A stretch of DNA of 64,000 nt from Candidatus Woesearchaeota archaeon (GTDB lineage Archaea; Nanobdellota; Nanobdellia; Woesearchaeales; JAHWIC01), in assembly GCA_019322485.1 (NCBI GenBank), contig JAHWIK010000015.1, positions 23,216 through 87,215 of the forward strand, read 5' to 3'. Positions 24,839 through 52,712 of this stretch are shown piece by piece. Position numbers and translations under genes: made by a program. The notes below the pieces were generated by a model that was not told the origin of the DNA, made no database searches, and worked only from the letters and a program-made list of their open reading frames with translations. Within the stretch, counting starts at the first letter, position 1; each line of letters begins with the position of its first letter.

Positions 24839-26016
24839 TTTTTCTTCCTCTTTTTAGGCTTTAGTTTCTTTATCATTATTATCAATGCTGCAGCTATAAT
24901 AGCTAAGGCAACTGCCACATACAACAATGGAGATACCTTTCTTTCTGCTTCGTGCAGCTCTATTGTAAACTCCCTTTCAAAGGTTTTATCTTTATAGTAA
25001 GCCTTTGCCTTTAGTTCATAAGATCCAAGCTCCAGCTCATGCGCTTCCCAATGAAGCCTTACAGAGCTGTTCCTGTTTGGTTCGATATCAATCCTGTTTG
25101 CTTCCATAGCTGCAATTACTGTGCCATTCCTGATAATATCTGCAGTCAGGTTAACATCCTCAAGCTCTTTATTCCAGTTTGACCCTAAGAACATATTTAT
25201 CCTGTTGATTTTATCAACAACAGCAGTTCTTGTTCCTAAGAAAATCAGCACCCCTTCTTCACCAATCCTAAAACTTCCAGTTTCTTCTACTGCTTTTCCG
25301 GAAAACTTAATGATTGATTCTGCATCATACTCACCAGGCTTGAACAGGAACTTCTTTATGGTTAATTGGTTTTCATGACTTTTTCCAGGCTCAATAGTAA
25401 ATGTTGCTTTTGGCAGGGATAGTATCTTCTTCTCTGTATTTCCCAGAATCTTATAACCAAGCACTACATCATGGAATCCATTTACAAGTGCAGCTTTGTA
25501 CAGGCTTGCAACTTTCTCTTTATTCTCATATATGTTAAGGTCATTCTCTATTCCTCCAATTGTTATTGCGCCTTTGTTTTCCATTACTGTTGTAAATTTC
25601 ATAAGATATTGGCTGTCATCAATAACCAAAAGCTCTGTTTTAAGGTATTCCTCAGGATACGGAACAAATAAATTAACCGTATGATGTACTGATGGCTTTG
25701 TTGTTACTGTTCCTGAACCTGCTGGTTCTTCATATACAACTATCTTAGCCTGATGCTCGCCAGGCCCGAAAGGCCCTGATAGGTTAAAGCTGAATTCTTT
25801 TGGGCCTATTACAACCCCTTCACGCGCAATCTCCACGTCAAGCTCACCTTCAACACCAATTGTAATCCTTGTTGGAAGGTTTGATGAAGGTATAACTGTA
25901 AAAACACCTGAATGCTCTTTATTCCCAAAGAAATCTGTCTTTGCGGGCATTGCCCCTAAAGCAAACACAGCGTCTATTGAAAGCACCAATATAATAAATA
26001 AAATCCATTTTTTCAT
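24835..26016 (-). CDS. secreted beta-rich protein with a C-terminal TM anchor and basic tail
   Basis: Signal 'ILFIILVLSIDAVFA'. C-terminal 'LLYVAVALAIIAAALIIMIKKLKPKKRKKK'. 4-nt overlap with the giant gene. Confidence 0.55.
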   Translation of the reverse strand: MKKWILFIILVLSIDAVFALGAMPAKTDFFGNKEHSGVFTVIPSSNLPTRITIGVEGELDVEIAREGVVIGPKEFSFNLSGPFGPGEHQAKIVVYEEPAGSGTVTTKPSVHHTVNLFVPYPEEYLKTELLVIDDSQYLMKFTTVMENKGAITIGGIENDLNIYENKEKVASLYKAALVNGFHDVVLGYKILGNTEKKILSLPKATFTIEPGKSHENQLTIKKFLFKPGEYDAESIIKFSGKAVEETGSFRIGEEGVLIFLGTRTAVVDKINRINMFLGSNWNKELEDVNLTADIIRNGTVIAAMEANRIDIEPNRNSSVRLHWEAHELELGSYELKAKAYYKDKTFEREFTIELHEAERKVSPLLYVAVALAIIAAALIIMIKKLKPKKRKKK

Positions 26017-32000: not shown

Positions 32001-32063
32001 TAAGAGGATAATACAAAGTACTAATTTAATAATTTCAGATATCTTTTTTGTTTTATCTTTCAT
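26013..32063 (-). CDS. giant (2016 aa) surface protein with about 15 Cys/Asp/Asn calcium-binding-like repeats and C-terminal Ig/FN3-like domains
   Basis: N-terminal TM/signal. Repeated 'C-x-D-x-x-DND-x-D...DC-x-D-x-DC' units, e.g. CSDGFDNDQDGELDC, CTDGVDNDLDRY, CIDGKDNDLDFY. The C-terminal 'RPTFTWYNA...YFWRVRAY' is FN3-like. Confidence 0.8.
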   Translation of the reverse strand: MKDKTKKISEIIKLVLCIILLLVSSLNFFIIPDGKELSSITEITGGASSSGTVGFFLLRVADTSNNYRRRVFYEDGSVINLTVIGEGIIENLKANFSCMDSNYADGAETVTNTAGNNYSISYTISQSNTVTNVNNSEDSTCPVGEECHRTCTIPVTSGRRLNGTVQLAFYEGKAALNYAWYVGYVTRAANCAAGVDNSNYFLENNTCSSVFYNPADSSYYYGAKDVDFSIKKKNTPDVVETHCANNADDDGDGKIDCEDSDCASIVYGEYYIVGGSNTNKQGTPAWTCNKTAAGWRDDPPYDPGDLDGSLQCIDGGTCDASCAPNLCTGTASNTAVTYTYKIQPEALFSMRLYQTSQITGYTAYFKVWQFNTSLWQENPGDFWILNYSATTGLSGKTTSANSIIAQSGPNPPSDPTPYTQSTLDNVLKAMMNTTNNFYGMYGLVLNRIFNGSAYDFKFNINISDDGVRDEHDISCADSYDNDLDYTTDCIDIDCDAYIGSTSANPDGTYPLCAYQNESKYAATNNSCTDGFDNDDDGDTDCHYNAGTWDTDCNNTYILNSSWLSYNVGGINGTCELGVETICNDLFDNDRDRAFDCNTTAFFTGGVIQYLSNPTNPRSTYSGGGTYPHGEYDCFNDSNCPINESGITCIDGKDNDLDFYSGLPGAGADCRMVEYDIDCNSSVLPAGTCQLIFETSCSDGFDNDQDGELDCNTTSTGASTTNPNYQYGAGGSNIAHGEYDCQSTCNVTNYWENDGANCSDNKDNDLDYYTITGWTGTQYSATNNQYGGGMDCRYNYDGNHYPDADCDGVDMGPGKCELGHEINCTDGYDNDLDNAYNPGGNRTSASGGYDCDDYDCANDSACPTTETASLCTDGVDNDLDRYVYNITDYLLDSNRVENLSGGIDCIYYAYGLTPNQFWPYAIAYDSYRYDQDCNDTAIGPSGQNCELIIERNCTDVFDNDQDYYISQMQNPGWTNASYQYHFGANTYLQDGDCNDYSCYNNSACPGRENYTCSPTGCNSTQNWCLDSIDNDLDNYLSDGINLSTAAGAGIDCAWNNYDSDCNNTYINDSGNIGLCTIRWEYNCSDGVDNDQDLGTYYVGESGSAHAGANTGEDCDDYNCYAVQESGLYVCTDDGSGLSIVEQTCNDTLDNDLDAYTWNGTEYETNDASGTDCGDPDCNGLLGPGDILCALFEEMYFDPFDDTLCGDYNSSGTTAYSMDNDGDNLANCYDTGCYHQGLCRVCPPEENVTLDSCMDGLNNEYEYQDEYISKTNYDPNEINASLNDGVYDCRDSDCDGIVGVWSTSQGICNSASAGTGYRTTESACTDSYDNDFDNSVDCEDSDCSSGASCLAPYTNSLAACTLKCSDAAAVSYIGGEPPDYSVNTNWGGGTPDLTYTEYHWRGKNLTFTFTDSATNVNGKTIQIYLGSASATYVPLDYEMNASNSGIYGTDSGNFNVQYSAQSGYHYQAVLIEYSGAYPNQILNLTFWITVPDNDTIVQNSSFSYYVSTSIGGVEQNADVTQYILETEPPQAPVFVKTTPADDDYTTSRLRMIKTDNTVTRLSASDTVYVRVNATDSGTWNSGVELCQFNDGTGWVNETSAYDCRYALTLSDGLNTIYARAVDGVGNIGPNTSLTIDVRTLPKQTTGFFCIDTNCSTSYPTKDYYVPTETLNVAVNFTSTYGFTANASGCVVYAEKNSPGSRISLGSVPLASTGMCNGTVSLSGLSEGYYTVEVELRDDNDTRTVSGELPWSNGNSKENIWVCDYTQTYNGYTCKDACEREEANRPSKVILKSPESGNTTTELRPTFTWYNATYNGSTTAKYEIEIDDSPIFTSLDYSRGNLSEGSNNETSHTLISDLELDKTYFWRVRAYHSIISGEWSDVWNFTLSSYIAINLTRDVVDFGVVIPGFSESTEDDSPLPLLLENVGNLIVNISINATDLFETVPNPNESYQFAIGVNESGSFTSATTTLTPMPSNSTPAIYNLNWEDASDTAEIDLNATVPLLEPSGQKNSTILVRTT

Positions 32064-32212
32064 TATTCTATTAACACCACTTTTACTTTTTTGTTAGCCC
32101 AGTGTTTAGGAACGTAGATTTGAGCACCGTTGCCGCTGTGTTTTGCGGTCTTCTCAATAACCTCATAACCTTCCATTTCCATTTGAATCGGCTTTCTCTT
32201 TAGGCGTTTCAT
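32063..32212 (-). CDS. 49-aa AbrB/SpoVT-like (DUF2080-like) mini-protein, copy 1
   Basis: My own translation, below the ORF-track cutoff: MKRLKRKPIQMEMEGYEVIEKTAKHSGNGAQIYVPKHWANKKVKVVLIE. Its stop TAA shares 1 nt with the giant gene's ATG (TAATG). Confidence 0.55.
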   Translation of the reverse strand: MKRLKRKPIQMEMEGYEVIEKTAKHSGNGAQIYVPKHWANKKVKVVLIE

Positions 32213-32352
32213 TATTCTATTAACACCACCTTGACTTTTTTGTTAGCCCAGTGTTTAGGAACGTAGATTTGAGCACCGTTGCCGCTGTGTTTTGCAGTCT
32301 TCTCAACTACCTCATGCCCTTCTATTTTCATCTGAATTGGCTTACTTTTCAT
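32212..32352 (-). CDS. 46-aa AbrB/SpoVT-like (DUF2080-like) mini-protein, copy 2
   Basis: My own translation: MKSKPIQMKIEGHEVVEKTAKHSGNGAQIYVPKHWANKKVKVVLIE. It makes a TAATG junction with copy 1. The C-terminal 30 aa are identical to copy 1. Confidence 0.55.
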   Translation of the reverse strand: MKSKPIQMKIEGHEVVEKTAKHSGNGAQIYVPKHWANKKVKVVLIE

Positions 32353-32729: not shown

Positions 32730-33452
32730 TTATTCAACATAAACCTTTTCCTTTCCTAGATTCTTAAATGGAATCTCACCAAATCTGCAATTTCTGCAGG
32801 TTGCATCCAAATCAACCCAGTGGTCCATTGATTTATAGCTTTTCAGGGCATCTGGAAGATAAGCCTGGACATAAACATGCCTTGGAATGAAAACTAACCT
32901 TGTGTTTACACCAATTGCTTCTAAGAGAGTTGCTAATAGAACAGCAGCATCATCGCAGTCACCACCCTGAACAGAAAGAGATTCTTTGGCTGTCTTAACA
33001 TACTCAAACTCATTTGGGTCAGAGACATAATTGAAATTATCACGAATAAAATAATAGAGGGCTTTTGCATGGCATACGCGATTAGTAGGGCAGCCCATAA
33101 CTGAAACCCTGTCAGCAGTCTGCTTGATTAAAGGGTCTGTTGGGTCTATTAACTCCAAGAAATCGTATTTGTTGGTCACATTATGTTTTGTAAGGTTTAA
33201 TGAGAATTCTGGAACAACCTCGCTGATTGTTGGAATATAATTAGGTGCAGGATCAATCTTTATAGAATAAGAAGGAACCAGCCATAGCACAACTAATAAT
33301 AACAGAAATATTGCCATAATCCATTTTATAGGGCCTCTCCACCATGGCTCTTGCTCAATATCCTCATGAACTTCGTGTTCTTCTTCCATATTGATTGTTT
33401 TTTCTTCTATGTTTATATTGTTTTTGTTTGAGGAAAGCTTTATAAATCGCAT
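32730..33452 (-). CDS. membrane-anchored transglutaminase-like (papain-fold) domain protein
   Basis: One TM segment. 'QGGDCDDAAVLLATLLEAIGVNTRLV..PRHVYV' followed by 'DLDAT', giving a Cys-His-Asp arrangement. Confidence 0.65.
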   Translation of the reverse strand: MRFIKLSSNKNNINIEEKTINMEEEHEVHEDIEQEPWWRGPIKWIMAIFLLLLVVLWLVPSYSIKIDPAPNYIPTISEVVPEFSLNLTKHNVTNKYDFLELIDPTDPLIKQTADRVSVMGCPTNRVCHAKALYYFIRDNFNYVSDPNEFEYVKTAKESLSVQGGDCDDAAVLLATLLEAIGVNTRLVFIPRHVYVQAYLPDALKSYKSMDHWVDLDATCRNCRFGEIPFKNLGKEKVYVE

Positions 33453-33472: not shown

Positions 33473-33925
33473 ATGGACTATGCTGAATCAGATAGGGAAC
33501 ATTTGGAGAGCACCTTAGCAGCTGCTACTTCGCCAGTATTAGCTTATTATAGAACTGGCTCAACAGTGAATGGCCAAGCTTTGCCTCACTCTGATATAGA
33601 TTATATTATAATAAATGACATGGATACACATACTCCTTATGGGCATGTTGCCCGTGTCTGGGACCCAAATGCTGCAAAGTTTGTTGATTTTGTTCATTTT
33701 ACAAGAAAGGACCTGGAGTCTCCATCAACAATACCAGATGAGCAGGGCAGAGATGGCAAAATTAAGTATTTGATGAGAGAATTAGTGCGTGAGAGGATAC
33801 TTCTTCATGGTGGAGATGCTTTTCTTGCTTTATTAAATGAAGGAGACCTAAAAAGAGTAGCAGAACAATTAGGGATAGATTCTAGTTCAATGGCAAGGCT
33901 GAAAAATGCAGTATCCTGGGAATAG
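33473..33925 (+). CDS. minimal nucleotidyltransferase (Pol-beta superfamily) domain protein
   Basis: 'YYRTGSTVNGQALPHSDIDYIII' matches the GS-x(n)-D-x-D motif. Confidence 0.55.
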   Translation: MDYAESDREHLESTLAAATSPVLAYYRTGSTVNGQALPHSDIDYIIINDMDTHTPYGHVARVWDPNAAKFVDFVHFTRKDLESPSTIPDEQGRDGKIKYLMRELVRERILLHGGDAFLALLNEGDLKRVAEQLGIDSSSMARLKNAVSWE

Positions 33926-33996
33926 GTTTTTCTTTTTATCCCGAAATTAAAACAACCTTTATAAACAATAATTCTTAACTTTTTCTGGGGGAAATA

Positions 33997-35889
33997 ATGG
34001 TTAAAGAGGAGTTAGATAGAAGTCACTTTCTTGATTTAGTCAGTAGTCCGAAGGATTTGAGGCTGTTGAATAAGCAGCAGTTAGATATGCTTGCTGAGGA
34101 ATTAAGAAGGCTAATAATTGAAACTGTAAGCAAGACAGGCGGCCACTTAGCGTCCAGCCTTGGTGTTATTGAATTAACTATTGCTTTGCATTATGTTTTT
34201 GACTCACCAAATGACAAGATAGTATGGGATGTTGGACATCAGGCTTATGCACATAAGCTGTTAACAGGAAGAAAAAATAAGTTCCATACCTTAAGGCAGC
34301 ACAAGGGCATAGCTGGTTTTCCAAAATCAAAGGAGAGCCCTCACGATGCCTTTGATACTGGACACAGCTCAACAGCAATATCAGCAGCTTTAGGAATAGC
34401 AGCTGCTCGCGATTTAAAGCATGAAAAAAACAAGGTGATAGCTGTTATTGGAGACGGAGCTTTAACTGGCGGAATGTCTTTTGAAGCCTTAAATCATGCT
34501 GGCTCATTAAAGAAAGACCTCATAGTAATCCTTAATGATAATGAGATGTCAATAAGCAAGAATGTAGGTGCTTTATCCTCTTATCTTTCAAAGCTGGTAT
34601 CAAAGCCTGGTTATGTCGACAGAAGAAAGAAAGTAGAAAGGATTTTAAGGGGGATACCTGGCCTGAGAAGGCAGGCTGCTAAGGTTTTTGGAATCGAGGA
34701 TACAATAAGGGCTTTAGCAGCTACAACTCCTGGCCTGATATTCAGGGAGCTTGGTTTTAGGTATTTTGGACCTGTTGATGGCCATAATATCGAGCAGATG
34801 ATAAAAACATTAGAGAACATAGAACAGCTTAAAGGTCCTATATTGCTTCATGTCATAACAAAAAAAGGGAAAGGCTATAGCTATGCAGAAGCTGACAGGA
34901 CAAGGTTTCATGGCATTGCGCCATTCAACATAGAGAATGGTGAAAAGAAGCACAAGAGCAGCGTTACATACACAACAGCATTCTCAAGATGTTTGACAAA
35001 GCTTGCAAAGCAGGACAAAAGGGTAGTTGCAATAACAGCAGCAATGAAGCCTGGAACAGGATTAGACCAGTTTGCAGGAATGTTTCCAGACAGGTTATTT
35101 GACGTCGGCATAGCAGAGCAGCATGCAGTTACATTTGCAGCTGGCTTGGCTAAGAACGGCTATAAGCCGGTATGCGCGATTTATTCTACTTTCCTGCAAA
35201 GGGCTTATGACCAGATTGTGCACGATGTTTGTTTGCAGAACCTGCCTGTTGTCTTTGCAATTGATAGAGCTGGCTTGGTCGGAGAGGACGGACCAACACA
35301 TCATGGAAGTTTTGATTTATCTTATCTGAGGCATATACCAAACATGACTGTAATGGCTCCAAAGGACGAGAATGAACTGGGGCATATGCTAAAAACAGCT
35401 TTAGAGATTGACGGGCCGGTTGCAGTAAGATACCCAAGAGGTACGGGCTTGGGGGTTGCAATACAGAACCCATACCACCCAATAGAATTAGGAAAAGCAG
35501 AAGTAATGCAGAAAGGAAAAGATTTGGCAATATTAGCAGTTGGTTCTTGCGTTGATATGGCGAATAAGGCTGCTGAGAAACTGGGGAAGAATAAAATAAA
35601 TGCAACCGTTGTTAATGTAAGGTTTGTAAAGCCTCTGGACGAGAAACTAATACTGAACCTAGCAAAGAAACACAGGAAACTGATTACTATAGAGGAGAAT
35701 GCATTAGATGGCGGTTTTGGTTCTGGTGTGCTGGAATTGTTGGAGCAGTATAACACCAAGGCAACGGTAAAAAGAATTGGAATACCTGATAAATTTGTAG
35801 AGCACGGTTCAATGTCAATCTTAAGAGAAAAAATTGGATTAACTGAGGATAATATAGTGAAGGAAGCGAAGTCGTTGATGGCAAAATGA
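33997..35889 (+). CDS. dxs: 1-deoxy-D-xylulose-5-phosphate synthase
   Basis: 'GGHLASSLGVIELTIALHYVF', 'DVGHQAYAHKLLTGR', 'GDGALTGGMSFEALNHAG' and 'DGPTHHG'. Confidence 0.95.
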   Translation: MVKEELDRSHFLDLVSSPKDLRLLNKQQLDMLAEELRRLIIETVSKTGGHLASSLGVIELTIALHYVFDSPNDKIVWDVGHQAYAHKLLTGRKNKFHTLRQHKGIAGFPKSKESPHDAFDTGHSSTAISAALGIAAARDLKHEKNKVIAVIGDGALTGGMSFEALNHAGSLKKDLIVILNDNEMSISKNVGALSSYLSKLVSKPGYVDRRKKVERILRGIPGLRRQAAKVFGIEDTIRALAATTPGLIFRELGFRYFGPVDGHNIEQMIKTLENIEQLKGPILLHVITKKGKGYSYAEADRTRFHGIAPFNIENGEKKHKSSVTYTTAFSRCLTKLAKQDKRVVAITAAMKPGTGLDQFAGMFPDRLFDVGIAEQHAVTFAAGLAKNGYKPVCAIYSTFLQRAYDQIVHDVCLQNLPVVFAIDRAGLVGEDGPTHHGSFDLSYLRHIPNMTVMAPKDENELGHMLKTALEIDGPVAVRYPRGTGLGVAIQNPYHPIELGKAEVMQKGKDLAILAVGSCVDMANKAAEKLGKNKINATVVNVRFVKPLDEKLILNLAKKHRKLITIEENALDGGFGSGVLELLEQYNTKATVKRIGIPDKFVEHGSMSILREKIGLTEDNIVKEAKSLMAK

Positions 35890-36923
35890 GAAGCAAAACA
35901 AAAGAAATCAGGATTGGAAAACTGAAGATTGGCGGAGATAATCCTATTGCAATACAGTCAATGACTAATACTGATACAAAAGACGAGGAAGCAACAATAA
36001 AACAGATTCATGAGCTAGAGGAGAATGGCTGCGAGATAGTTAGGGTTTCTGTTCCTGACAAGGAATCGTTGCTTTCATTAAGAGCAATAAAAGAAAACAT
36101 AAGCATTCCATTGGTTGCTGATATTCATTTTGACCATAAATTAGCTGTAGAAGCTGCAAGGATTGCAGACAAGATAAGGATTAACCCAGGAAATATTGGG
36201 AAAGAGAACCTGAAAGAGGTTGTTGATGCTGTTATGGATTCAAATATTCCGATGAGGGTGGGGATTAACCTAGGTTCTTTGGAAAAAGACATTGAGAAGA
36301 AGTTTGGCCTTACTGCATTAGGTATGGTTGAGAGCGCAATGAGGTCTGTGAAAGAGATAGAAAGGCTTGGCTTCTACAATATGGTTATTTCATTAAAGGC
36401 TTCTGATGTGTTAAAGACAATAGAAGCTTACAGATTGTTTTCACAGAGGTCACAATACCCTTTACACGTCGGTATAACCGAGTCTGGGAGCAGTTTTACA
36501 GGAACTGTTAATTCATCAGTTGGAATTGGAGCTTTATTATTGCAGGGAATTGGAGATACAATCCGCGTTTCATTATCAGCTGAGCCTGTTGAAGAGGTTA
36601 AAGTTGGCTGGCAGATTCTGAAAGCACTTAGGCTTAGGAAGAGGGGGATTGACATAACAAGCTGCCCAACGTGCGCAAGAAAAGGCATAGATGTTATCAA
36701 TATTGTCAAGGAGCTTGAGCAAAGAACCTCAAAAATGAACAAGCCTTTGCATATTGCAGTTATGGGCTGCGGTGTTAATGGTCCAGGAGAAGCTAAAGAA
36801 GCTGATATTGGTGTTGTCGGCGGAAAAGGAAATGTTTTGCTTTACAAGAATGGAATGATGGTCGGCAATATTGAGGGAGATGTTCTTGAAAGGTTGATGA
36901 AGGAGATAGAGAATTCAAAATGA
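35886..36923 (+). CDS. ispG: 4-hydroxy-3-methylbut-2-en-1-yl diphosphate synthase
   Basis: 'IGGDNPIAIQSMTNT', 'RINPGNIG', 'SCPTCAR' and 'AVMGCGVNGPGEA'. ATGA overlap with dxs. Confidence 0.9.
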   Translation: MRSKTKEIRIGKLKIGGDNPIAIQSMTNTDTKDEEATIKQIHELEENGCEIVRVSVPDKESLLSLRAIKENISIPLVADIHFDHKLAVEAARIADKIRINPGNIGKENLKEVVDAVMDSNIPMRVGINLGSLEKDIEKKFGLTALGMVESAMRSVKEIERLGFYNMVISLKASDVLKTIEAYRLFSQRSQYPLHVGITESGSSFTGTVNSSVGIGALLLQGIGDTIRVSLSAEPVEEVKVGWQILKALRLRKRGIDITSCPTCARKGIDVINIVKELEQRTSKMNKPLHIAVMGCGVNGPGEAKEADIGVVGGKGNVLLYKNGMMVGNIEGDVLERLMKEIENSK

Positions 36924-38305
36924 GCTGGAAATTAATCACATTAAAACAGTATCCGATGTTCTCGAGATGGTGGATACATGAAGCGTTTCTCCACGATATG
37001 AAAGATACTTTAGGTATGAATTTTAAAATGTACAAATCGCTCTATAGCGGGACTTATGCTGATAGTGATGAGGTTGAAAAGTTAAGGTCTATGTTAATAT
37101 CTAAACTTGAAAAAGATATTGATTCAATTAGGAAATTATGTGAGAATTGGAAACATGATTGTGATGAGCTTATTAGATTTACAAAAGAATTAGAAAAATC
37201 GGACTTCTCAAAAAACTCTGATGAGGAATTAGTTAATTTATCAGAGAATTGCATTAAAAAATTAAGAAGAAGCGCTTCATATATTTATCTGTCAGTTGTT
37301 TTGGATGAATATTTTCAGAATTGGCTGAATAAAATACTTGAAGCTAAGGTTCAGGACCAGAATGAGAGGACAAAATACTTCCAAATTCTTACATCTCCAA
37401 CAAAAAATACTAAATTAATTGACGCTAAGAAGGTATTAATTGAGATTTCTAAAGTTGTTAAAGAGAAAGGTCTTGAGGGAGCAGAGGACTTAATCAAAGA
37501 TTATGTATCTAAATTTAAATGGCTTGGATATGATACTGGAATTGGAAGTGATTTAACTATAGAACAAACAAAGGATAAGATTTCTAATATTCTTGAGCAA
37601 AAACAGCACGACTCTGATGTTAAAAATAGGGATGAGGTCTTGTCTGAGTTGGATCTCAATGAAAAAGATAAAGAATTACTTGACTTGATGGACGAACTTA
37701 TTTTCCTAAGGACTTATAGGGCTGAAAGCAATATGGTTGCAGGAGCTGATATAAGGCCTATTCTTGAAGAACTTGCAAAAAGAGCCAATACAAATTATGA
37801 TAATCTAGTTCAATTAACCATTGATGAAATAAAAGACTCAATAAAGTCAAAAAAAGTAGACTTGAAGAAGATTGAGGAGAGAAAGAATAAGTATGGCTTG
37901 TTAATGGTCGATGGAAAGAATACAATCTACAGTGGAGATGAAGTGGATAAAGTAGAGGAAAAGGTTGAAGTTCCTGAAGGATTGACAGAGTTAAAAGGAT
38001 TAGTAGCACACCATGGAAATAAGAGGGGCCATGTTAAGATTGTTTTGAGGCATAAAGACTTTGATAAGATTGAATTTGGAGATATTTTGGTAACAAAGAT
38101 GACTAATCCTGATTTTATAGTTGTTTTAGAACAGTGTTCTGGAATAATTACAGACATTGGAGGGATAACCTCTCATGCAGCGATTGTTGCACGAGAACTA
38201 AACAAGCCATGCATTACAGGAACTCAATATGCTACAAAAGTCTTGAAAGATGGTGACTTAGTTGAGCTTGATACAGATAAAGGCATTGTAAAGATAATAA
38301 AATGA
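36920..38305 (+). CDS. uncharacterised protein with a C-terminal PEP-utilising-enzyme mobile (swivel phospho-His) domain
   Basis: C-terminal 'GIITDIGGITSHAAIVARELNKPCITG'. The N-terminal ~360 aa are helical and K/E-rich, with no ATP-grasp motif I can see. ATGA overlaps on both sides. Confidence 0.7.
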   Translation: MSWKLITLKQYPMFSRWWIHEAFLHDMKDTLGMNFKMYKSLYSGTYADSDEVEKLRSMLISKLEKDIDSIRKLCENWKHDCDELIRFTKELEKSDFSKNSDEELVNLSENCIKKLRRSASYIYLSVVLDEYFQNWLNKILEAKVQDQNERTKYFQILTSPTKNTKLIDAKKVLIEISKVVKEKGLEGAEDLIKDYVSKFKWLGYDTGIGSDLTIEQTKDKISNILEQKQHDSDVKNRDEVLSELDLNEKDKELLDLMDELIFLRTYRAESNMVAGADIRPILEELAKRANTNYDNLVQLTIDEIKDSIKSKKVDLKKIEERKNKYGLLMVDGKNTIYSGDEVDKVEEKVEVPEGLTELKGLVAHHGNKRGHVKIVLRHKDFDKIEFGDILVTKMTNPDFIVVLEQCSGIITDIGGITSHAAIVARELNKPCITGTQYATKVLKDGDLVELDTDKGIVKIIK

Positions 38306-39453
38306 ACATAGCAATCATAACAGCAGCTGGAAAAGGAACAAGGATGAATGAAAAAGTCAATAAAATATTGTTATCTTTAGTCGATAAATCAATAATTGAA
38401 GAAACAATCGAGGTTTTTGAGGCGTGTAAAGATATTGATGAGATAATTATTGTTGGAAACAGCGATGATATTGAATCATTAAACAAAATCAATGAAAAAA
38501 ATAATTATAAAAAAATTAAAAAAATCATTGAAGGCGGAGAACAACGGCAGGATTCAGTGTTTAATGGAATAAAATCCATTGAAAATGCGAGTAATGATGA
38601 TATTTTATTGATTCATAATGGTGCAAACCCCCTTGTAGACGAGAAAACGATTCTTGAATGTATTAAAGAAGCAAAGGAGCATGGGGCAGCTGTTGCTGCA
38701 ATGCCTGCAAAAGATACAATAAAACAGGTTGAGAATGGTTTTGTTGCTAAAACATTGGATAGAAAGCAGCTCTGGCAGATGCAGACACCGCAAACAATCC
38801 AGTTTGGGCTTGCGAAAGAGGCTTTTGAAAAGGCATTTGCTGATAATTTCTATGGAACTGATGATGTTGGGCTTGTAGAAAGGCTTGGAAAAAAGGTTAA
38901 GATTGTTGAGTGCAATACTGAGAACGTAAAAATCACAACAAAGAATGATTTAGAACAAGCAAGACTCTTGCTTAATGCTTCTGTTGTTGGAATCGGACAG
39001 GATTCCCACAAATTTACCGACGAGAAAAAGGATTTAGTTTTGGGTGGTGTAGTAATTCCAAATGAGCAGGGCTTAGAAGCAAACTCTGATGGTGATGTCA
39101 TCCTGCATGCCTTGTTTAATGCTTTAAGCCAGGCAGCTGGAGAAAAATCATTGGGAAATTATGCAGATTCAATGTGTGAGAATGGAATAAAAGACAGCAG
39201 AGAGTATCTAAGAGTGATTTTAGACATAATCAACAAGAAAAATTACAAGATAAATAATGTTGGCTTTATGATAGAAGCAAAAAAGCCAAGGCTAGGGGCT
39301 AATGAAGACAGAATAAAAGAGAATATTGCAAATTTATTGGGAATAACTAAAGATAAAGTTGGAATAACAGCAACCTCAGGAGAGGAATTAACTCCATTTG
39401 GCCAGGGCAAGGCAATACAGGTATTTTCAGTTGCAAGCTTAACAAGAAAATAA
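38302..39453 (+). CDS. ispDF: bifunctional IspD/IspF (MEP cytidylyltransferase / MEcPP synthase)
   Basis: N-terminal 'IITAAGKGTRM' is IspD-like. C-terminal 'GIGQDSHKF...SDGDVILHAL' is IspF-like. Confidence 0.9.
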   Translation: MNIAIITAAGKGTRMNEKVNKILLSLVDKSIIEETIEVFEACKDIDEIIIVGNSDDIESLNKINEKNNYKKIKKIIEGGEQRQDSVFNGIKSIENASNDDILLIHNGANPLVDEKTILECIKEAKEHGAAVAAMPAKDTIKQVENGFVAKTLDRKQLWQMQTPQTIQFGLAKEAFEKAFADNFYGTDDVGLVERLGKKVKIVECNTENVKITTKNDLEQARLLLNASVVGIGQDSHKFTDEKKDLVLGGVVIPNEQGLEANSDGDVILHALFNALSQAAGEKSLGNYADSMCENGIKDSREYLRVILDIINKKNYKINNVGFMIEAKKPRLGANEDRIKENIANLLGITKDKVGITATSGEELTPFGQGKAIQVFSVASLTRK

Positions 39454-39474
39454 TGAAAATCAAAGATTTTCAGT

Positions 39475-40344
39475 ATGTCAAAAACCAAGGTTTTTAACAT
39501 GATCCAGCTAAAAGCACACGCAAAGATAAACCTGACCTTAGATGTACTTGCAAGGCTGGATGACGGCTATCATCGGATAGAATCTATAAAACAGCAGGTT
39601 GGTTTGCACGATAAAATCTCATTAGGGCCATTGGATGATATAAAGGTAATCTGCAGCCATCCTAACATAACCACAAAAGAAAATCTTGTCTTTAAAACAG
39701 CATTGTTGCTAAAAAATGAATTTAATGTAGCAGAGGGAGCGAAGATAACAATAGAAAAAAATATTCCATTAGCTGCTGGCTTGGCTGGAGGCTCATCAGA
39801 CGCAGCAGCAACCCTGGTAGGATTAAACAAGCTTTGGAAACTTGAGCTTGATGAGCAGGAACTGACAAAATTAGCTGCAGAGATTGGAATGGATGTTCCT
39901 TTTTCTGTTGTTGGCGGTTCTTGTTTTGCAGAGGGCAAAGGCACTAAACTAAGCAGGATAGAGCTGCCTGAGATGCATGTGCTGTTAATCAACCCTGGTT
40001 TTGAAGTCTCTACAAGAACAGCTTACCAAAGCCTTGACTTGTCAAGAACAGGAAAGGCAATGGCAACAAAGAAACTATTGGAAGTAAGGAACATGGGTGT
40101 GAGAGAAATATCAAAGGTCATGCATAATGACTTTGAAGCTGTGGTGCTGGGGAAGCATTCTATTCTGAAAGAGATAAAGGGCAAATTAATGGAGAATAAT
40201 GCCTTGAATGCAATAGTATCTGGCTCAGGGCCAACTGTTTTTGGCTTGTTTGAGGATGAATCAACTATAAGCAAGGCTTACGAATCTCTTAAAGAAACTT
40301 ATCCATTTGTATTCATGACAAAAACAGTAGCGAGGAAAGAATGA
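39475..40344 (+). CDS. ispE: 4-diphosphocytidyl-2-C-methyl-D-erythritol kinase
   Basis: 'KAHAKINLTLDV', 'PLAAGLAGGSSDAAATL' and 'SGSGPTVFG' (GHMP kinase motifs). Confidence 0.9.
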   Translation: MSKTKVFNMIQLKAHAKINLTLDVLARLDDGYHRIESIKQQVGLHDKISLGPLDDIKVICSHPNITTKENLVFKTALLLKNEFNVAEGAKITIEKNIPLAAGLAGGSSDAAATLVGLNKLWKLELDEQELTKLAAEIGMDVPFSVVGGSCFAEGKGTKLSRIELPEMHVLLINPGFEVSTRTAYQSLDLSRTGKAMATKKLLEVRNMGVREISKVMHNDFEAVVLGKHSILKEIKGKLMENNALNAIVSGSGPTVFGLFEDESTISKAYESLKETYPFVFMTKTVARKE

Positions 40345-41153
40345 GAATTAAAAAAGCAAAGCACTCTGGATTTTGTTTTGGTGTTAAGAGGGCAGTAGAG
40401 TCAGCGCTGGGCACAGAGGGGGAAGTAAAGACATTAGGCCCATTAATACATAATCCTCAGTTTATAGCAGAGCTTGAGAAAAAGGGAATAAAATCTGTTG
40501 ATTCTGTCGATGAGGTTGAAAAAGGCTCTTTGATAATAAGGGCGCATGGTGTCCCGGATTCTGTTATAGAAAAGGCCAGGGGAAAAGGGCTTAATGTAAC
40601 TGATTTAACATGTCCTTTTGTCAGGAAGGTGCATGATTATGCTAAGGAATTCTACAAACAAGGCTATAGTGTGGTTGTGGTTGGAGAGAAAAACCATCCT
40701 GAGGTTGTAGGAATAATTGGCAACATTGATGGTATTGTTGTGGGCAATGCAGATGATGCAAGGAAACTTGGCAGGTTCGAAAAGATTGGAGTGGTTGCAC
40801 AAACAACACAATCACTTGAGAACTTTAACAATGTTGTTGATGAGCTGAAAAAGCATACAGATGAGTTAAAGGTACATAATACCATATGCTCTGAAACAGA
40901 TTCAAGGCAGAAACACGCTATTGAGCTGGCAAAAGAGGTTGACTTGATGATAGTTATTGGGGGGAGAAACTCTGGAAATACCAGAAGGCTTGCCCAGCTT
41001 TGCTCTAAATTAACTGAAACAAAGCATATTGAGTCTGAGGATGAGTTAAAGGAGGGGTGGTTTGCAGGCAAGGGTTGTGTTGGGATAACAGCTGGCGCTT
41101 CAACACCGGACAGCACAATCAAGAAGATTGAGGATAGAATCAGGGAGATATGA
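40341..41153 (+). CDS. ispH: 4-hydroxy-3-methylbut-2-enyl diphosphate reductase
   Basis: 'GFCFGVKRAV', 'GPLIHNPQ', 'LTCPFVRKVH', 'NTICSET' and 'GASTP'. Confidence 0.9.
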   Translation: MRIKKAKHSGFCFGVKRAVESALGTEGEVKTLGPLIHNPQFIAELEKKGIKSVDSVDEVEKGSLIIRAHGVPDSVIEKARGKGLNVTDLTCPFVRKVHDYAKEFYKQGYSVVVVGEKNHPEVVGIIGNIDGIVVGNADDARKLGRFEKIGVVAQTTQSLENFNNVVDELKKHTDELKVHNTICSETDSRQKHAIELAKEVDLMIVIGGRNSGNTRRLAQLCSKLTETKHIESEDELKEGWFAGKGCVGITAGASTPDSTIKKIEDRIREI

Positions 41154-42246
41154 GATTATGGAATTCATACAAGCAGTAGGGCAATACAAGGGAATAGTCA
41201 ATAAGACTTTAAGCACGTTCTTTGATAATCATATCAATAAAACACAGGATGGCTTTCTAAAATTTAATTATTCTACACTTAGGGATTATGTTTTGCGGGA
41301 CGGCAAGAGATTAAGGCCAATCACACTGATAATGGCTTACAAGTCAATAACTGATAATGATGAGCAGAAGATTTACATGCCTTCTTTGAGTATGGAACTG
41401 TTCCATGCTTCCTCATTAATACATGATGATATAATGGATGAGGATGATTTAAGGAGGGGAAAAGAGAGCATGCATACCCTGTTTAACCAGTGGTTTGTTG
41501 ATAATCACGGCCAGGCAGGCTATAATGGGCCTATATTTAACCAGTTATCTACTAAGTTTGGGGTTTCTATGGCAATACTGCAGGGAAATATACTGATTGC
41601 TTTAGGTGAGTCCTGCTTGTCAGGCTCCTCATTTGCCCCGGAACAGATAAAGGCTGCTTTAATGGTGTGCAATAACACAAACAAGGTAGTTAATGAAGGC
41701 CAGATACAGGACATTGTTCTGGAGACAAAGAGGGAGTTTACTGAAAATGATTATTTGAGTATGATTGCTAAGAAAACAGGCAAATTATTCAGCACATCTC
41801 TTGAGATAGGTGCAGTATTTGCAGGTGCAACAGATTCTCAGAGAAAAGCGCTTGATAATTATGCATTATCTGCAGCAACAACATTCCAGATACAGGACGA
41901 TATAATGGACATAAGCCCTGATATGAAAAAGGGGCATGAGGTTGGCTCTGATATAAAGCAGGGAAAAAGAACCTTGCTTGTTATGAAGGCCCTGGAAAAA
42001 GGGGATGAAGGCCAAAAAAAGGTTTTGTTTGATGCTCTTGGCAATGAGAAAGCAACACCAGAAGAAATAGAGATTGCTATCGATGTTATGCACGCTACAG
42101 GGGCAGTTGATTATGCAAAGAATCTTGCAGCTGATATGATTAAGAAAGGAAAGGATGCGCTTAAGGAAGCAGACCCTGCTTTATCTTCTGATGGATTGAA
42201 GTTCTTTAATGATTTAGCAGATTATATGGTAAATAGAAATGTCTAG
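41128..42246 (+). CDS. trans-polyprenyl (GGPP-type) diphosphate synthase
   Basis: FARM 'LIHDDIMDEDDLRRG' and SARM 'FQIQDDIMD'. The true start may be the ATG at 41159 (MEFIQAV...). Confidence 0.85.
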   Translation: MRIESGRYEIMEFIQAVGQYKGIVNKTLSTFFDNHINKTQDGFLKFNYSTLRDYVLRDGKRLRPITLIMAYKSITDNDEQKIYMPSLSMELFHASSLIHDDIMDEDDLRRGKESMHTLFNQWFVDNHGQAGYNGPIFNQLSTKFGVSMAILQGNILIALGESCLSGSSFAPEQIKAALMVCNNTNKVVNEGQIQDIVLETKREFTENDYLSMIAKKTGKLFSTSLEIGAVFAGATDSQRKALDNYALSAATTFQIQDDIMDISPDMKKGHEVGSDIKQGKRTLLVMKALEKGDEGQKKVLFDALGNEKATPEEIEIAIDVMHATGAVDYAKNLAADMIKKGKDALKEADPALSSDGLKFFNDLADYMVNRNV

Positions 42247-42764
42247 GATTTGATTAGTTTCTCTAGCTTGTCCCAATTGTCTGCTGAGTTTTCTTCGCAG
42301 TTATAGGTTGCCAGCTTGACTCCTTGAGGTATGACCTTGACTTTGTATGCATGAGCTCCTTTAGAGTTTACTTTCTCATTTCTTATGCTTTTTTTAATCT
42401 CTTCAGAGCAGGCAAAGCCAATAACTCCTCTTGGCTTGTGTTTCTTTATAATCCTCTTCATGAAGTTAAGAGAAGGAACAACAAAGAATTTAGAGCCAAG
42501 GCCTTCGCTTAATTTTCTTATGTCCCCTATCTTACACAGTCCGCAGCTGATGCACTTAACCCCTTCTAATGAATCAAGCCTTGCAGGACATTTAGGATTT
42601 CTTAAGCAGTGAGGCAGAAAAACGGCTCTTTCATTCTTAGGTATTTTCCTGAAGTCTTCCTCATAATATTTGTTGATAGCATCTAGGATATCATGTTTTA
42701 TTCCTAATAGCTTTCTAAGTGGATATAACGATACTGTCAGGAAGAATTTCACTTTTTTATTCAT
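42243..42764 (-). CDS. DUF116-like Cys-rich protein
   Basis: 'FLPHCLRNPKCPA...CISCGLCKIGD' and 'VIGFACSEE'. Confidence 0.6.
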   Translation of the reverse strand: MNKKVKFFLTVSLYPLRKLLGIKHDILDAINKYYEEDFRKIPKNERAVFLPHCLRNPKCPARLDSLEGVKCISCGLCKIGDIRKLSEGLGSKFFVVPSLNFMKRIIKKHKPRGVIGFACSEEIKKSIRNEKVNSKGAHAYKVKVIPQGVKLATYNCEENSADNWDKLEKLIKS

Positions 42765-42788: not shown

Positions 42789-43244
42789 TTATTCTAACAA
42801 CATTCTTGCTCTTGATGGATCATATTTCCACTCAGAGGATAATTTTCCAGTTCTCTTGTAGTACTTTACAAGCCTGTTTATCTTTGACGAGGTTAACAAC
42901 AAGCCTCTTTTTGCAGTTGAGTCTCTTGTGTTTGCCTCAAGATGCTTGTGTATCTTAACTGCCCTCCTTATGAGGCTTTGCAGGTCCTCAGGCATAGCTG
43001 GCAGAATTTTCTTTTCTTTTAGAATCTGCGTAATGTCCTTTTTTGTTAACAGCTTAACATTAGGAACACCGTAAGTATCTCTTAGTGAAATGCCTATCTG
43101 GGAAGGTGTTTTGCCTTCTTTTGCCAGCCTTACAATCAATAATTCTATTTCCTTTCCTTTGTACCTTGTCCATGTGGGTGTTGTTGTCTGTAATGGTTTT
43201 TTGCTTTTAGCTTTACCTTTCCTTCTTGAATACATTCTTGCCAT
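42789..43244 (-). CDS. rps15: 30S ribosomal protein uS15 (S13e type)
   Basis: 'MARMYSRRKGKAKS', 'PSQIGISLRDTYGVP' and 'HLEANTRDSTAKRGLLL'. Confidence 0.9.
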   Translation of the reverse strand: MARMYSRRKGKAKSKKPLQTTTPTWTRYKGKEIELLIVRLAKEGKTPSQIGISLRDTYGVPNVKLLTKKDITQILKEKKILPAMPEDLQSLIRRAVKIHKHLEANTRDSTAKRGLLLTSSKINRLVKYYKRTGKLSSEWKYDPSRARMLLE

Positions 43245-43393: not shown

Positions 43394-43565
43394 TAGCCCC
43401 GGGCAGATTCGAACTGCCGTCCCCGGCTGTTTTCGATGGAAATCGCAAAACTGTTGGAAATCTTTGATTTCCACCACCAAAAGCAGGGATGATTTGTCGG
43501 AAATCGGAGATTTCTGAGCAAATTGAAAATCTCCGATTTTCAATTGACCACTACACTACGGGGCT
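43394..43565 (-). tRNA. tRNA-Gln(UUG) with two introns (51 nt in the D-arm, 48 nt at 37/38)
   Basis: Hand fold gives acceptor AGCCCCG/CGGGGCU (A1-U72) and D arm GUGU-AGUGGUCAA-[intron]-UCAU. The AC stem is CCUGC/GCCGG with a U-C mismatch, and the loop is UUUUGG|A. The T arm is GGCAG-UUCGAAU-CUGCC. The mature length is 73 nt. Intron 2 forms a full hBHBh' motif. Confidence 0.7.
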
Positions 43566-52584: not shown

Positions 52585-52700
52585 TGCCCCTGCCGAGAAT
52601 CGAACTCGGGTCTTCAGGTTTTTGCAAAATTGCCGCAACCTAATATTCTTTTTGGCTATGCCGAACCTTGTTCAGCAAGTATCCACTATACTACAGGGGC
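52585..52700 (-). tRNA. probable tRNA-Arg(GCG) with a 13-nt 37/38 intron and a ~31-nt D-arm insertion
   Basis: Acceptor GCCCCUG/CAGGGGC. T arm CCGAG-UUCGAUU-CUCGG. AC stem UUAGG/CCUGA with loop UUGCGG|A. The mini-intron CAAUUUUGCAAAA gives H = UUGC/GCAA flanked by 3-nt bulges. I could not fix the D-arm boundaries by hand. Confidence 0.6.
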
Positions 52701-52712
52701 AATAATTTGTTT

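What the first reader, a model, noticed from the sequence alone, without database searches (positions are those of the whole stretch)
33997..42246. Bacterial-type MEP/DOXP isoprenoid operon embedded in an unmistakably archaeal chromosome
dxs, ispG, ispDF, ispE and ispH are all recognisable from canonical motifs. They are chained by ATGA start/stop overlaps at 35886, 36920, 38302 and 40341. The chain ends in a GGPP-type prenyl synthase that carries both DDxxD motifs.

The flanking genes are archaeal:
- uS15 (S13e type)
- eS24 and eS27ae
- the P0/P1 stalk proteins
- Spt4 and a class-I CCA enzyme
- Dph5
- tRNAs with BHB introns

By established knowledge, archaea make IPP through mevalonate-type routes and the MEP pathway is bacterial or plastidial. 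A whole co-translated MEP operon feeding a GGPP synthase therefore implies wholesale acquisition of the bacterial route for archaeal lipid precursors. I am unsure how widely this has been reported for DPANN genomes.
Basis: partly seen in the sequence, partly recalled or inferred. Interest (0 to 1): 0.7.

Follow-up and report, generated by a model that had tools for sequence, protein, structure and literature searches.

The report
Known Woesearchaeota MEP isoprenoid operon
This is the bacterial-type MEP isoprenoid gene cluster already reported for a clade of Woesearchaeota (DPANN archaea). This copy keeps dxr at a separate locus and carries one extra inserted gene for a histidine-swivel phosphotransferase subunit.

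Summary
The genes are real and sit at the stated coordinates. The window comes from an NCBI Candidatus Woesearchaeota MAG in which they are already annotated.

- The chain holds seven ORFs, not six. Window 36920-38305 encodes a 461-aa protein. It folds like the substrate-binding and His-swivel domains of rifampin phosphotransferase, that is, like HpeH of two-component dikinases. It is a clean single-ORF insertion that the closest relatives lack.
- dxr is missing from the operon and from the window. A Woesearchaeota Dxr (MBW2979868.1) falls 444 accession numbers before the window's proteins. It almost certainly belongs to the same MAG, on another contig, so the pathway is probably complete.
- The acquisition is not specific to this genome. 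Named IspG homologues down to 59% identity are nearly all DPANN. Published work describes the pathway in a monophyletic clade of 52 Woesearchaeota genomes, with a likely origin in Firmicutes or CPR bacteria.

An assembly chimera is excluded. Two further independent assemblies show the same junction between archaeal genes and dxs. dN/dS of 0.03-0.10 shows the genes are not decaying.

The prenyl synthase is most similar to archaeal GGPP synthases, but its chain length and any role in membrane lipids are untested. Novelty is low. The inserted orphan dikinase subunit is the only new detail.

The parts
33958..33965 (+). TATA-box-like TTTATAAA, 32 nt upstream of the dxs ATG, followed by a GGGGG Shine-Dalgarno-like run at 33987-33991. 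Candidate archaeal promoter of the operon.
   Evidence: Read directly from the sequence. The function is inferred, not tested.
33997..35889 (+). [quoted passage not shown]
   Evidence: TIGR00204 at 881 bits and PF13292 at E 6.5e-122. NCBI name. 79-81% aa identity to relatives L006, L007 and L021. dN/dS 0.07.
35886..36923 (+). ispG (gcpE), short bacterial type (345 aa). Cluster cysteines C260, C263 and C295 are present.
   Evidence: PF04551 at E 2.9e-141 and NF001540 at 462 bits. Cysteines. The top 120 homologues at 59-90% identity are almost all labelled DPANN.
36920..38305 (+). Inserted ORF of 461 aa (KY360_02750, MBW2980312.1). It is the substrate-binding plus phospho-His swivel component of an RPH/HpeH-like small-molecule dikinase, with catalytic His419 in GGITSHAAIVARE. 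No ATP-grasp partner is present in the window.
   Evidence: PF00391 at E 4.8e-26. AF2 model with pLDDT 91. Foldseek top hit is rifampin phosphotransferase 5fbu, E 4.9e-15, TMq 0.64. H419 is invariant in 37 homologues. blastn shows that window ~36915-38298 is the only segment missing in L006, L007 and L021. The closest homologues are followed by a coupled PPDK_N gene. No PPDK_N in the window.
38302..39453 (+). ispDF fusion (383 aa): MEP cytidylyltransferase plus MEcPP synthase
   Evidence: PF01128 at E 2e-61 and PF02542 at E 4e-39; TIGR00453 and TIGR00151 are above their cut-offs. The fusion is reported for Woesearchaeota subgroup J (PMC8421398).
39475..40344 (+). ispE, CDP-ME kinase (289 aa from ATG 39475). 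The NCBI call and alignment to relatives favour ATG 39499, giving 281 aa.
   Evidence: TIGR00154 at 241 bits. Start position.
40341..41153 (+). ispH (lytB), HMBPP reductase (270 aa). Cluster cysteines C12, C91 and C183 are present.
   Evidence: PF02401 at E 1.5e-91 and TIGR00216 at 281 bits. Cysteines.
41158..42246 (+). Short-chain trans-prenyl diphosphate synthase, archaeal GGPPS-like (362 aa). FARM DDIMD lies at nt 41425-41439 and SARM DDIMD at nt 41896-41910.
   Evidence: PF00348 at E 4e-55. NCBIfam IdsA and GGPP_syn are the best matches but fall below their cut-offs. The best solved relatives are the geranylgeranyl pyrophosphate synthetases 5jfq and 1wy0, which I recall to be from archaea. 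Motifs. NCBI start.
32730..33452 (-). Transglutaminase-core protein. It marks the conserved 5' flank of the operon in independent assemblies.
   Evidence: PF01841. 84% aa identity and the same position in L007. Same order, rotamase then TGase then dxs, in L021, which also carries P0 and L1.
42789..43244 (-). Archaeal uS15 (S13e type), 3' flank marker, preceded by DUF116 at 42243-42764
   Evidence: PF08069 plus PF00312, and NF006331 at 201 bits.

Best explanation
The locus is the MEP (non-mevalonate) isoprenoid gene cluster that a clade of Woesearchaeota (DPANN archaea) inherited from an ancestor, which had acquired it from bacteria.

In this genome it is one tightly packed transcription unit: dxs, ispG, [461-aa insert], ispDF, ispE, ispH, prenyl synthase. 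It is probably driven by an archaeal TATA-type promoter upstream of dxs, and 4-nt ATGA overlaps couple translation of adjacent genes.

Pathway steps:
1. Dxs makes DXP.
2. Dxr, encoded elsewhere in what is probably the same MAG, makes MEP.
3. IspD, IspE and IspF make MEcPP.
4. The Fe-S enzymes IspG and IspH make IPP and DMAPP.
5. An archaeal-type short-chain prenyl synthase elongates these, probably to C20.

The seventh gene is a lineage-specific insertion. It is the substrate-binding plus phospho-histidine swivel half of a two-component, RPH/HpeH-like small-molecule dikinase, cut away from its ATP-grasp partner. It would take phosphate on His419 from an ATP-grasp subunit encoded elsewhere and pass it to a hydroxyl of an unknown small molecule.

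Shown here: gene identities, order and coupling; the insertion; the archaeal context; purifying selection. Inferred: the promoter, the source of Dxr, the product chain length, and the activity and substrate of the insert.
For: Gene identities.

Start/stop overlaps and upstream TATA-like box.

Source: an NCBI Candidatus Woesearchaeota MAG with consecutive accessions MBW2980309-17, already named as MEP enzymes.

The enzymes belong to a DPANN clade. Among the 120 best IspG homologues (59-100% identity), every named one but P0123 is Woesearchaeota, Nanoarchaeota or 'archaeon'. The same holds for Dxr.

Literature:
- The pathway is widespread in a monophyletic clade of 52 Woesearchaeota genomes, with co-located genes (PMC8204110).
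- ispDF fusion, and Firmicutes or Nealsonbacteria affinities (PMC8421398).
- HGT is inferred (PMC6107057).

Not chimeric. The same TGase-dxs junction occurs in L007 (ENA) and L021 (JGI), and L021 also carries P0 and L1. GC of 0.33-0.42 matches the rest of the window.

Not decaying. dN/dS is 0.03-0.10, like the flanking gene. The catalytic Cys, His and DDxxD motifs are intact.

Dxr. MBW2979868.1 lies 444 accessions before KY360_02750, on a 187-kb contig. A Logan contig of the same protein shows it next to archaeal uS2.

Insert. The 1.38-kb segment is the only part missing from relatives. It has an RPH-like fold. Its closest homologues carry a coupled PPDK_N partner. The two-component dikinase precedent is HpeHI (PMC12167813).
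Against: - Assigning Dxr to the same MAG rests on accession-number arithmetic and on binning, not on a shared contig.
- No phylogeny with bacterial outgroups was built here. The bacterial origin is taken from the literature and from family assignments.
- The 3' junction (prenyl synthase, DUF116, uS15) was not seen in an independent assembly.
- No ATP-grasp partner for the inserted gene was found, so it may be inactive as a kinase or may use another phosphodonor.
- The product chain length is uncertain. Ser-Ser occupies positions -5 and -4 before the first DDxxD, where archaeal type-I GGPP synthases usually have an aromatic residue (my own knowledge of the family, not tested here).
Confidence: 0.9

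Rival explanations
1. Assembly or binning chimera: a bacterial MEP fragment was joined to archaeal sequence.
For: The MEP pathway is typically bacterial. A related MEP fragment sits at the very start of a 1.14-Mb record labelled 'Candidatus Omn...' (L006), which shows that such joins may occur in public assemblies.
Against: The same 5' junction (rotamase, TGase, dxs) occurs in two further independent assemblies, and L021 has P0 and L1 on the same contig. Composition is uniform. The last operon gene is archaeal-type. The closest homologues are DPANN, not bacteria. 52 genomes are published.
Confidence: 0.02
2. A recent, genome-specific wholesale acquisition of the bacterial route.
For: The enzymes are of bacterial type. 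The operon is compact and co-translated.
Against: Relatives with 55-89% identical enzymes and shared flanks form a deep DPANN clade. Synonymous sites are near saturation against the nearest relatives while the flank diverges equally. The literature places the gain at an internal Woesearchaeota node (PMC8421398).
Confidence: 0.03
3. The inserted His-swivel protein has been recruited to isoprenoid metabolism. For example, with an ATP-grasp partner it could phosphorylate a pathway alcohol such as 2-C-methyl-D-erythritol, 1-deoxyxylulose, isopentenyl phosphate or prenols. That would add a salvage entry to the MEP route.
For: The gene is intact and has an invariant catalytic His. It is translationally coupled on both sides inside the operon. 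It sits at the junction where other Woesearchaeota carry dxr, as in ispG-dxr-ispDF of L014. The family phosphorylates small-molecule hydroxyls (PMC12167813).
Against: The insert was seen in this one genome only. Four lineages of close relatives join ispG to ispDF directly. Homologues elsewhere are not next to MEP genes; they sit beside HD-domain, PPDK_N or paralogous genes. No ATP-grasp partner is in the window. dxr exists elsewhere, so no bypass is needed.
Confidence: 0.1
4. The operon supplies IPP for non-membrane isoprenoids, such as polyprenyl-phosphate glycan carriers or quinone-like or other prenylated compounds, rather than for archaeal ether lipids.
For: No GGGP or DGGGP synthase or G1P dehydrogenase is in the window. 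PMC8421398 reports that the MEP-bearing Woesearchaeota lack GGGPS and DGGGPS. A bacterial-type G3P dehydrogenase lies next to dxr. PAP2 and polyprenyl-phosphate translocase-like genes are in the window at 4116-5566.
Against: The coupled prenyl synthase is closest to geranylgeranyl pyrophosphate synthetases 5jfq and 1wy0. PMC8204110 notes UbiA prenyltransferases near MEP genes in some genomes. The rest of the MAG was not inspected.
Confidence: 0.3

Closest known systems
MEP/DOXP gene clusters of Woesearchaeota (Castelle & Banfield 2018 as cited in PMC8204110; Castelle et al. 2021, PMC8204110; Huang et al. 2021, PMC8421398)
   Same: DPANN host, co-located bacterial-type dxs, ispG, ispDF, ispE and ispH, the ispD/F fusion, and a prenyl synthase at the end of the cluster. 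Homologues are 55-89% identical and share flanks.
   Different: Here dxr is unlinked. L014 has ispG-dxr-ispDF and L010/L011 have dxr-ispDF-ispE-ispH-prenyl synthase. A 461-aa dikinase-component gene is inserted between ispG and ispDF. I found no mention of either detail in the papers read.
Bacterial MEP pathway (Firmicutes/Clostridia-type and CPR-type enzymes)
   Same: All six enzyme families reach or approach the equivalog cut-offs of bacterial models. eggNOG best hits for Woesearchaeota dxr and ispG in PMC8421398 carry taxon ids 1304284 and 273068, and that paper states that dxr and ispG are most related to Firmicutes.
   Different: The genes are encoded in an archaeal chromosome, behind a TATA-like element, and fused in one operon with an archaeal-type GGPPS-like gene. 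The nearest sequence relatives are other DPANN, not bacteria.
Two-component small-molecule dikinases (HpeHI) and rifampin phosphotransferase RPH (PMC12167813; PMC4844700; PDB 5fbu)
   Same: The 461-aa ORF has the RPH substrate-binding plus His-swivel fold (Foldseek E 4.9e-15, TMq 0.64) and the conserved TSH histidine. Its closest homologues (59-67% identity) are followed by a coupled ATP-grasp PPDK_N gene, like HpeH and HpeI.
   Different: Sequence identity to RPH is only about 15%. No ATP-grasp partner is nearby. The substrate is unknown. The gene is embedded in an isoprenoid operon rather than in an aromatic-catabolic or resistance context.
GGPP synthases with solved structures (PDB 5jfq, 1wy0)
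   Same: These are the best solved-structure matches (E 5.5e-48 and 7.2e-44). Both DDxxD motifs are present. NCBIfam IdsA and GGPP_syn are the top models. From memory, 5jfq is from Geoglobus acetivorans and 1wy0 from Pyrococcus horikoshii, both archaea.
   Different: Scores are below the equivalog cut-offs (207 against 468; 197 against 500). There is an insertion of about 20 aa after the first DDxxD. Ser-Ser lies at -5 and -4 instead of an aromatic residue, so the product length is uncertain.

Membership tests
MEP (non-mevalonate) pathway gene set | Dxs (DXP synthase) | tested here: met
   TIGR00204 at 881 bits against a cut-off of 466.
MEP (non-mevalonate) pathway gene set | Dxr/IspC (or DRL) in the locus | tested here: not met
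   No PF02670, PF08436 or PF13288 in any scanned window ORF. tblastn with a Woesearchaeota Dxr finds nothing in the window. A Dxr (MBW2979868.1) is inferred to lie elsewhere in the same MAG.
MEP (non-mevalonate) pathway gene set | IspD, IspE, IspF | tested here: met
   TIGR00453 at 216 against 181, TIGR00151 at 152 against 116, and TIGR00154 at 241 against 139.
MEP (non-mevalonate) pathway gene set | IspG and IspH with Fe-S cysteines | tested here: met
   NF001540 at 462 against 345 and TIGR00216 at 281 against 188. Three conserved cysteines in each protein.
MEP (non-mevalonate) pathway gene set | Enzymatic activity and flux to IPP/DMAPP | not testable with these tools
   Only indirect support: dN/dS of 0.03-0.10.
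Woesearchaeota MEP clade (PMC8204110, PMC8421398) | Host is a Woesearchaeon and the enzymes cluster with other DPANN sequences | tested here: met
   NCBI label Candidatus Woesearchaeota. Archaeal marker genes are present across the window. Named IspG hits are DPANN. No formal tree was built.
Woesearchaeota MEP clade (PMC8204110, PMC8421398) | Co-located MEP genes with the ispD/F fusion | tested here: met
Two-component RPH/HpeHI-type small-molecule dikinase | Phospho-carrier His swivel domain with conserved His | tested here: met
   PF00391 at E 4.8e-26. H419 is invariant in 37 sequences.
Two-component RPH/HpeHI-type small-molecule dikinase | RIF-binding-like substrate domain | tested here: met
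   The AF2 model (pLDDT 91) aligns over both domains to 5fbu and 5fbt, TMq 0.60-0.64.
Two-component RPH/HpeHI-type small-molecule dikinase | ATP-grasp (PPDK_N) domain or an adjacent partner subunit | tested here: not met
   None in the window. It is present next to the closest homologues in L015, L016 and L018-L020, and fused in P0016 and P0017. The rest of the MAG was not searchable.
Two-component RPH/HpeHI-type small-molecule dikinase | Kinase activity on a defined substrate | not testable with these tools
   No biochemical data are available.
Geranylgeranyl diphosphate synthase (short-chain trans-prenyltransferase) | Polyprenyl_synt fold with two DDxxD motifs | tested here: met
   PF00348 at E 4e-55. 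DDIMD at aa 90 and aa 247.
Geranylgeranyl diphosphate synthase (short-chain trans-prenyltransferase) | Equivalog-level match to GGPPS models, or C20 product | tested here: inconclusive
   NF040698 at 207 against 468 and NF041003 at 197 against 500. The best PDB matches are named geranylgeranyl pyrophosphate synthetase. Chain length was not determined.

The most novel reading that the evidence does not exclude
The orphan RPH/HpeH-like His-swivel phosphotransferase was inserted, with translational coupling, at the ispG|ispDF junction, where other Woesearchaeota carry dxr. It may have been recruited as an accessory enzyme of the archaeal MEP route. For example, it could phosphorylate scavenged 2-C-methyl-D-erythritol, deoxyxylulose or prenyl alcohols taken from a host. 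That would give a host-dependent DPANN cell a salvage entry into isoprenoid synthesis.
Probability: 0.08. Interest if true: 0.55.

Novelty: already known. Interest (0 to 1): 0.22.

Why it matters
The MEP pathway in DPANN archaea bears on the 'lipid divide' and on how symbiotic archaea with hybrid archaeal and bacterial gene sets build membranes. That point has been in the literature since 2018, and this locus is already annotated in GenBank.

This analysis adds small points:
- A documented operon variant in one Woesearchaeota subclade, with dxr relocated next to a bacterial-type G3P dehydrogenase and archaeal uS2.
- A clean example of a single gene inserted with preserved translational coupling.
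- An orphan dikinase subunit whose substrate could be tested.

It also shows that the locus is neither an assembly artefact nor decaying.

Tried and rejected
1. 'The 461-aa ORF replaces Dxr.' Rejected for four reasons:
- Its fold is an RPH-like phosphotransferase, not a reductoisomerase.
- The closest relatives lack both dxr and the insert in the operon.
- Homologues elsewhere are not linked to MEP genes.
- A dxr is assigned to the same MAG.

2. Chimeric assembly. Rejected.

3. Looking up the source contig beyond the window with the look-up of encoding contigs failed, because the NCBI MAG is not indexed. The remaining 28 kb of the 92.6-kb contig and the rest of the MAG were therefore not inspected.

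4. The single genome-contig scan, queried with the 461-aa ORF, returned only an irrelevant swivel-domain hit in Flavisolibacter (L001).

5. The metagenome scan with IspDF gave only three short loci, although L014 proved informative.

6. Rfam at both gathering and E<=1 thresholds gave no RNA family in the window.

7. Supplementary Table 4 of PMC8204110 (genes neighbouring the MEP pathway) had no hits for my search terms in the two supplementary files held as text.

8. GC content as evidence that the insert is recent is inconclusive. The insert is at 0.328, but ispDF is also low at 0.354.

9. dS against the nearest homologues of the insert is saturated, so no dN/dS could be computed for it.

Full report
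**What is in the sequence.** The + strand from 33997 to 42246 carries seven contiguous ORFs. Pfam and NCBIfam identify six of them well above curated cut-offs:

| Gene | Coordinates | Best model |
|---|---|---|
| Dxs | 33997-35889 | TIGR00204, 881 bits |
| short bacterial-type IspG | 35886-36923 | NF001540, 462 bits |
| IspD-IspF fusion | 38302-39453 | PF01128 + PF02542 |
| IspE | 39475-40344 | TIGR00154, 241 bits |
| IspH | 40341-41153 | TIGR00216, 281 bits |
| polyprenyl synthase | ends at 42246 | PF00348 |

- The ATGA overlaps at 35886, 36920, 38302 and 40341 are real.
- Both DDxxD motifs (DDIMD at aa 90 and 247), the Fe-S cysteines of IspG and IspH, and the other motifs checked are intact.
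- A TTTATAAA box at 33958-33965 and a GGGGG run precede the dxs start. I read these as an archaeal promoter and ribosome-binding site; this is inference.
- The prenyl synthase most likely starts at ATG 41158, just after the ispH stop, as in the NCBI annotation.

**The archaeal setting is genuine.** Across the window I confirmed:
- a class-I CCA-adding enzyme, Rpo7, P0 with its insertion domain, and L1
- eS24, eS27a and P1
- Spt4 at about 13342-13527
- uS15 with the S13 N-terminal domain
- a Dph5-like methylase, FtsZ, an ATP-dependent DNA ligase and a Hel308-type helicase

Default ARAGORN and Rfam find no tRNA. ARAGORN in intron mode calls a tRNA-Lys at 43394-43565 with an 83-nt intron and a second candidate at 52584-52701. 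The acceptor stem and T arm of the first are visible by eye. BHB motifs were not tested.

1. The overlaps at 36920 and 38302 bound a seventh gene of 461 aa. Its only Pfam domain is the PEP-utilizers phospho-histidine swivel domain.
2. There is no dxr in the operon or anywhere in the 64-kb window (Pfam scans; tblastn with a Woesearchaeota Dxr).

**Source and prior knowledge.** The 461-aa ORF is identical to 'hypothetical protein KY360_02750 [Candidatus Woesearchaeota archaeon]' on a 92,607-bp NCBI contig. The operon proteins are MBW2980310-16, and the flanking ORFs 33473-33925 and DUF116 are MBW2980309 and MBW2980317. All are already named as MEP enzymes, polyprenyl synthetase or DUF116.

The literature describes exactly this:
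- Castelle et al. [quoted passage not shown]
- Huang et al. 2021 describe the ispD/F fusion. They find dxr and ispG closest to Firmicutes and ispDF closest to Nealsonbacteria. They also note that GGGP and DGGGP synthases are absent (PMC8421398).
- Hoshino & Gaucher 2018 infer HGT (PMC6107057).
- A 2024 survey again finds MEP in Woesearchaeota and Nanoarchaeota (PMC10936187).

The 120 best IspG homologues (59-100% identity) that carry a name are all DPANN, with one exception. The same holds for Dxr. The acquisition is therefore old within a Woesearchaeota clade and is not specific to this genome.

**Not a chimera and not decaying.**
- Two further independent assemblies show the same 5' junction. 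L007 (ENA) has TGase, a small ORF, dxs, ispG and ispDF, with the TGase protein 84% identical.
- L021 (JGI) has P1, P0, L1, further genes, rotamase, TGase, dxs, ispG, ispDF, ispE and ispH on one 10.6-kb contig.
- GC is uniform: 0.33-0.42 in the operon against 0.34-0.44 elsewhere.
- Against L021, dN/dS is 0.07 for Dxs, 0.10 for IspG, 0.09 for IspDF and 0.03 for IspE. The flanking TGase gives 0.05. Synonymous sites are near saturation.
- The 3' junction was not seen in a second assembly.

**Where dxr is.**
- In more distant Woesearchaeota, dxr sits in the cluster. L014 has ispG-dxr-ispDF, and L010/L011 have dxr-ispDF-ispE-ispH-prenyl synthase.
- In the window's subclade (IspG at least 83% identical: L006-L009, L012, L021), ispG overlaps ispDF directly.
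- Contig lengths in the Dxr and IspG hit lists coincide for the distant group but never for this subclade.
- One Dxr hit, P0330, is MBW2979868.1 from 'Candidatus Woesearchaeota archaeon' on a 187,486-bp contig. It lies 444 accessions before KY360_02750. That ORF is gene number 550 by locus tag, so the Dxr falls inside the same submission, near gene 100.
- A Logan contig with the identical protein (L022, SRR14699980) shows a complete three-domain Dxr. It is flanked by a bacterial-type NAD-dependent G3P dehydrogenase, DUF212 and an archaeal uS2.

I therefore infer that the pathway is complete in this organism, with dxr unlinked. This rests on accession arithmetic and on binning.

**The inserted gene.**
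- blastn against L006, L007 and L021 shows that window ~36915-38298 is the only segment without a counterpart. It is a clean one-ORF insertion, with AAAATGA at both junctions.
- An AlphaFold model (pLDDT 91.2) matches rifampin phosphotransferase over both its rifampin-binding and His-swivel domains (5fbu, E 4.9e-15, TMq 0.64).
- His419 in GGITSHAAIVARE is invariant in 37 homologues.
- There is no ATP-grasp domain in the protein and no PPDK_N gene in the window.
- The closest homologues (67% and 59% identity) are each followed by a translationally coupled PPDK_N gene (L015, L016, L018-L020). Others are fused to one (P0016, P0017).
- This is the architecture of the two-component dikinase HpeHI, in which HpeH is the swivel plus substrate-binding part and HpeI is the ATP-grasp part (PMC12167813).
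- The family is very large, with 2,432 representatives at E<=1e-30, many of them multi-module. It is common in CPR and DPANN.
- Homologues elsewhere are not next to MEP genes.

I conclude that the ORF is an orphan 'H' component, captured into the operon in this lineage. Its substrate is unknown. A role in isoprenoid metabolism is possible but unsupported beyond its position.

**The prenyl synthase and the end use.** The best solved relatives are the geranylgeranyl pyrophosphate synthetases 5jfq and 1wy0, which I recall to be archaeal. NCBIfam IdsA and GGPP_syn are the top models but fall below their cut-offs. A homologous prenyl synthase also ends the cluster in L010. Ser-Ser lies at -5 and -4 before the first DDxxD and an insertion follows it. 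By established knowledge of chain-length determination, this leaves the product length open. No archaeal ether-lipid genes are in the window. Use of the product for membrane lipids is therefore not shown.

**Verdict.** The phenomenon is already known and this locus is already annotated. The unlinked dxr and the inserted orphan dikinase subunit are minor new details.

Noticed in passing
L006 1-4898 (CP070655.1, GCA_020354945.1, 1,137,816 bp, labelled 'Candidatus Omn...'): The first 4.9 kb of this record is a Woesearchaeota-like dxs-ispG-ispDF-ispE fragment (proteins 74-89% identical to the window, 74-79% nt identity). Homology starts at base 1 and stops abruptly at 4898, inside ispE. Typical bacterial genes follow (LptF/G, exonuclease VII, YmdB). 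This is either a misjoin at a contig end or a recent inter-domain transfer.
   Followed up: partly
L022 3-920 and 2781-3374 (Logan SRR14699980): The dxr assigned to the same MAG lies between a bacterial-type NAD-dependent glycerol-3-phosphate dehydrogenase (GpsA-like: PF01210, PF07479, PF20618), DUF212 and an archaeal uS2. This fits the published note that bacterial G3P dehydrogenase co-occurs with MEP genes in Woesearchaeota.
   Followed up: partly
window 15432-17414 (-) and 17411-18256 (-): Ribosomal stalk protein P0 is 660 aa and has a C-terminal extension of about 370 aa rich in K, E and P. The homologue in L021 is 540 aa. L1 also carries a K/E/P-rich tail. This region shows the strongest strand skews in the window.
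   Followed up: no
window 32058-32200 and 32207-32349: A 143-bp tandem direct repeat, 91% identical, lies in the spacer between the 2016-aa ORF and the rotamase gene.
   Followed up: no
window 26013-32063 (-): A 2016-aa ORF with an N-terminal hydrophobic segment and many repeated Cys-rich, DNDxD-containing modules. It is probably a giant surface protein. It is absent from the syntenic contig L021.
   Followed up: no
window 43394-43565 (-) and 52584-52701 (-): Intron-containing tRNA candidates that only ARAGORN in intron mode finds: tRNA-Lys(UUU) with an 83-nt intron at position 33, and a doubtful tRNA-Pro(AGG) with a 28-nt intron. Rfam and default ARAGORN miss both.
   Followed up: partly
L007 9563-10000 (also L008, L009): These relatives have a spacer of about 437 nt between dxs and ispG that contains several perfect hairpins (for example AAAACCGCAC...GTGCGGTTTT). 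In the window, L006 and L021 the two genes overlap by 4 nt. The spacer may be a small mobile insertion.
   Followed up: no
L018 496-4306; contig of P0002; L015/L016: Homologues of the 461-aa ORF occur as tandem paralogue pairs plus one ATP-grasp gene (L018), next to HD-domain genes of about 200 aa (contigs of P0002 and P0010), and divergent from a GHMP-kinase gene (L015). The representative search also lists proteins of up to 2,648 aa with six matched stretches.
   Followed up: partly
window 4116-6555 (-): A PAP2 phosphatase, a VCA0040-like polyprenyl-phosphate translocase-like protein and a sugar nucleotidyltransferase lie together. They are possible users of polyprenyl phosphate made from the operon's products.
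   Followed up: no
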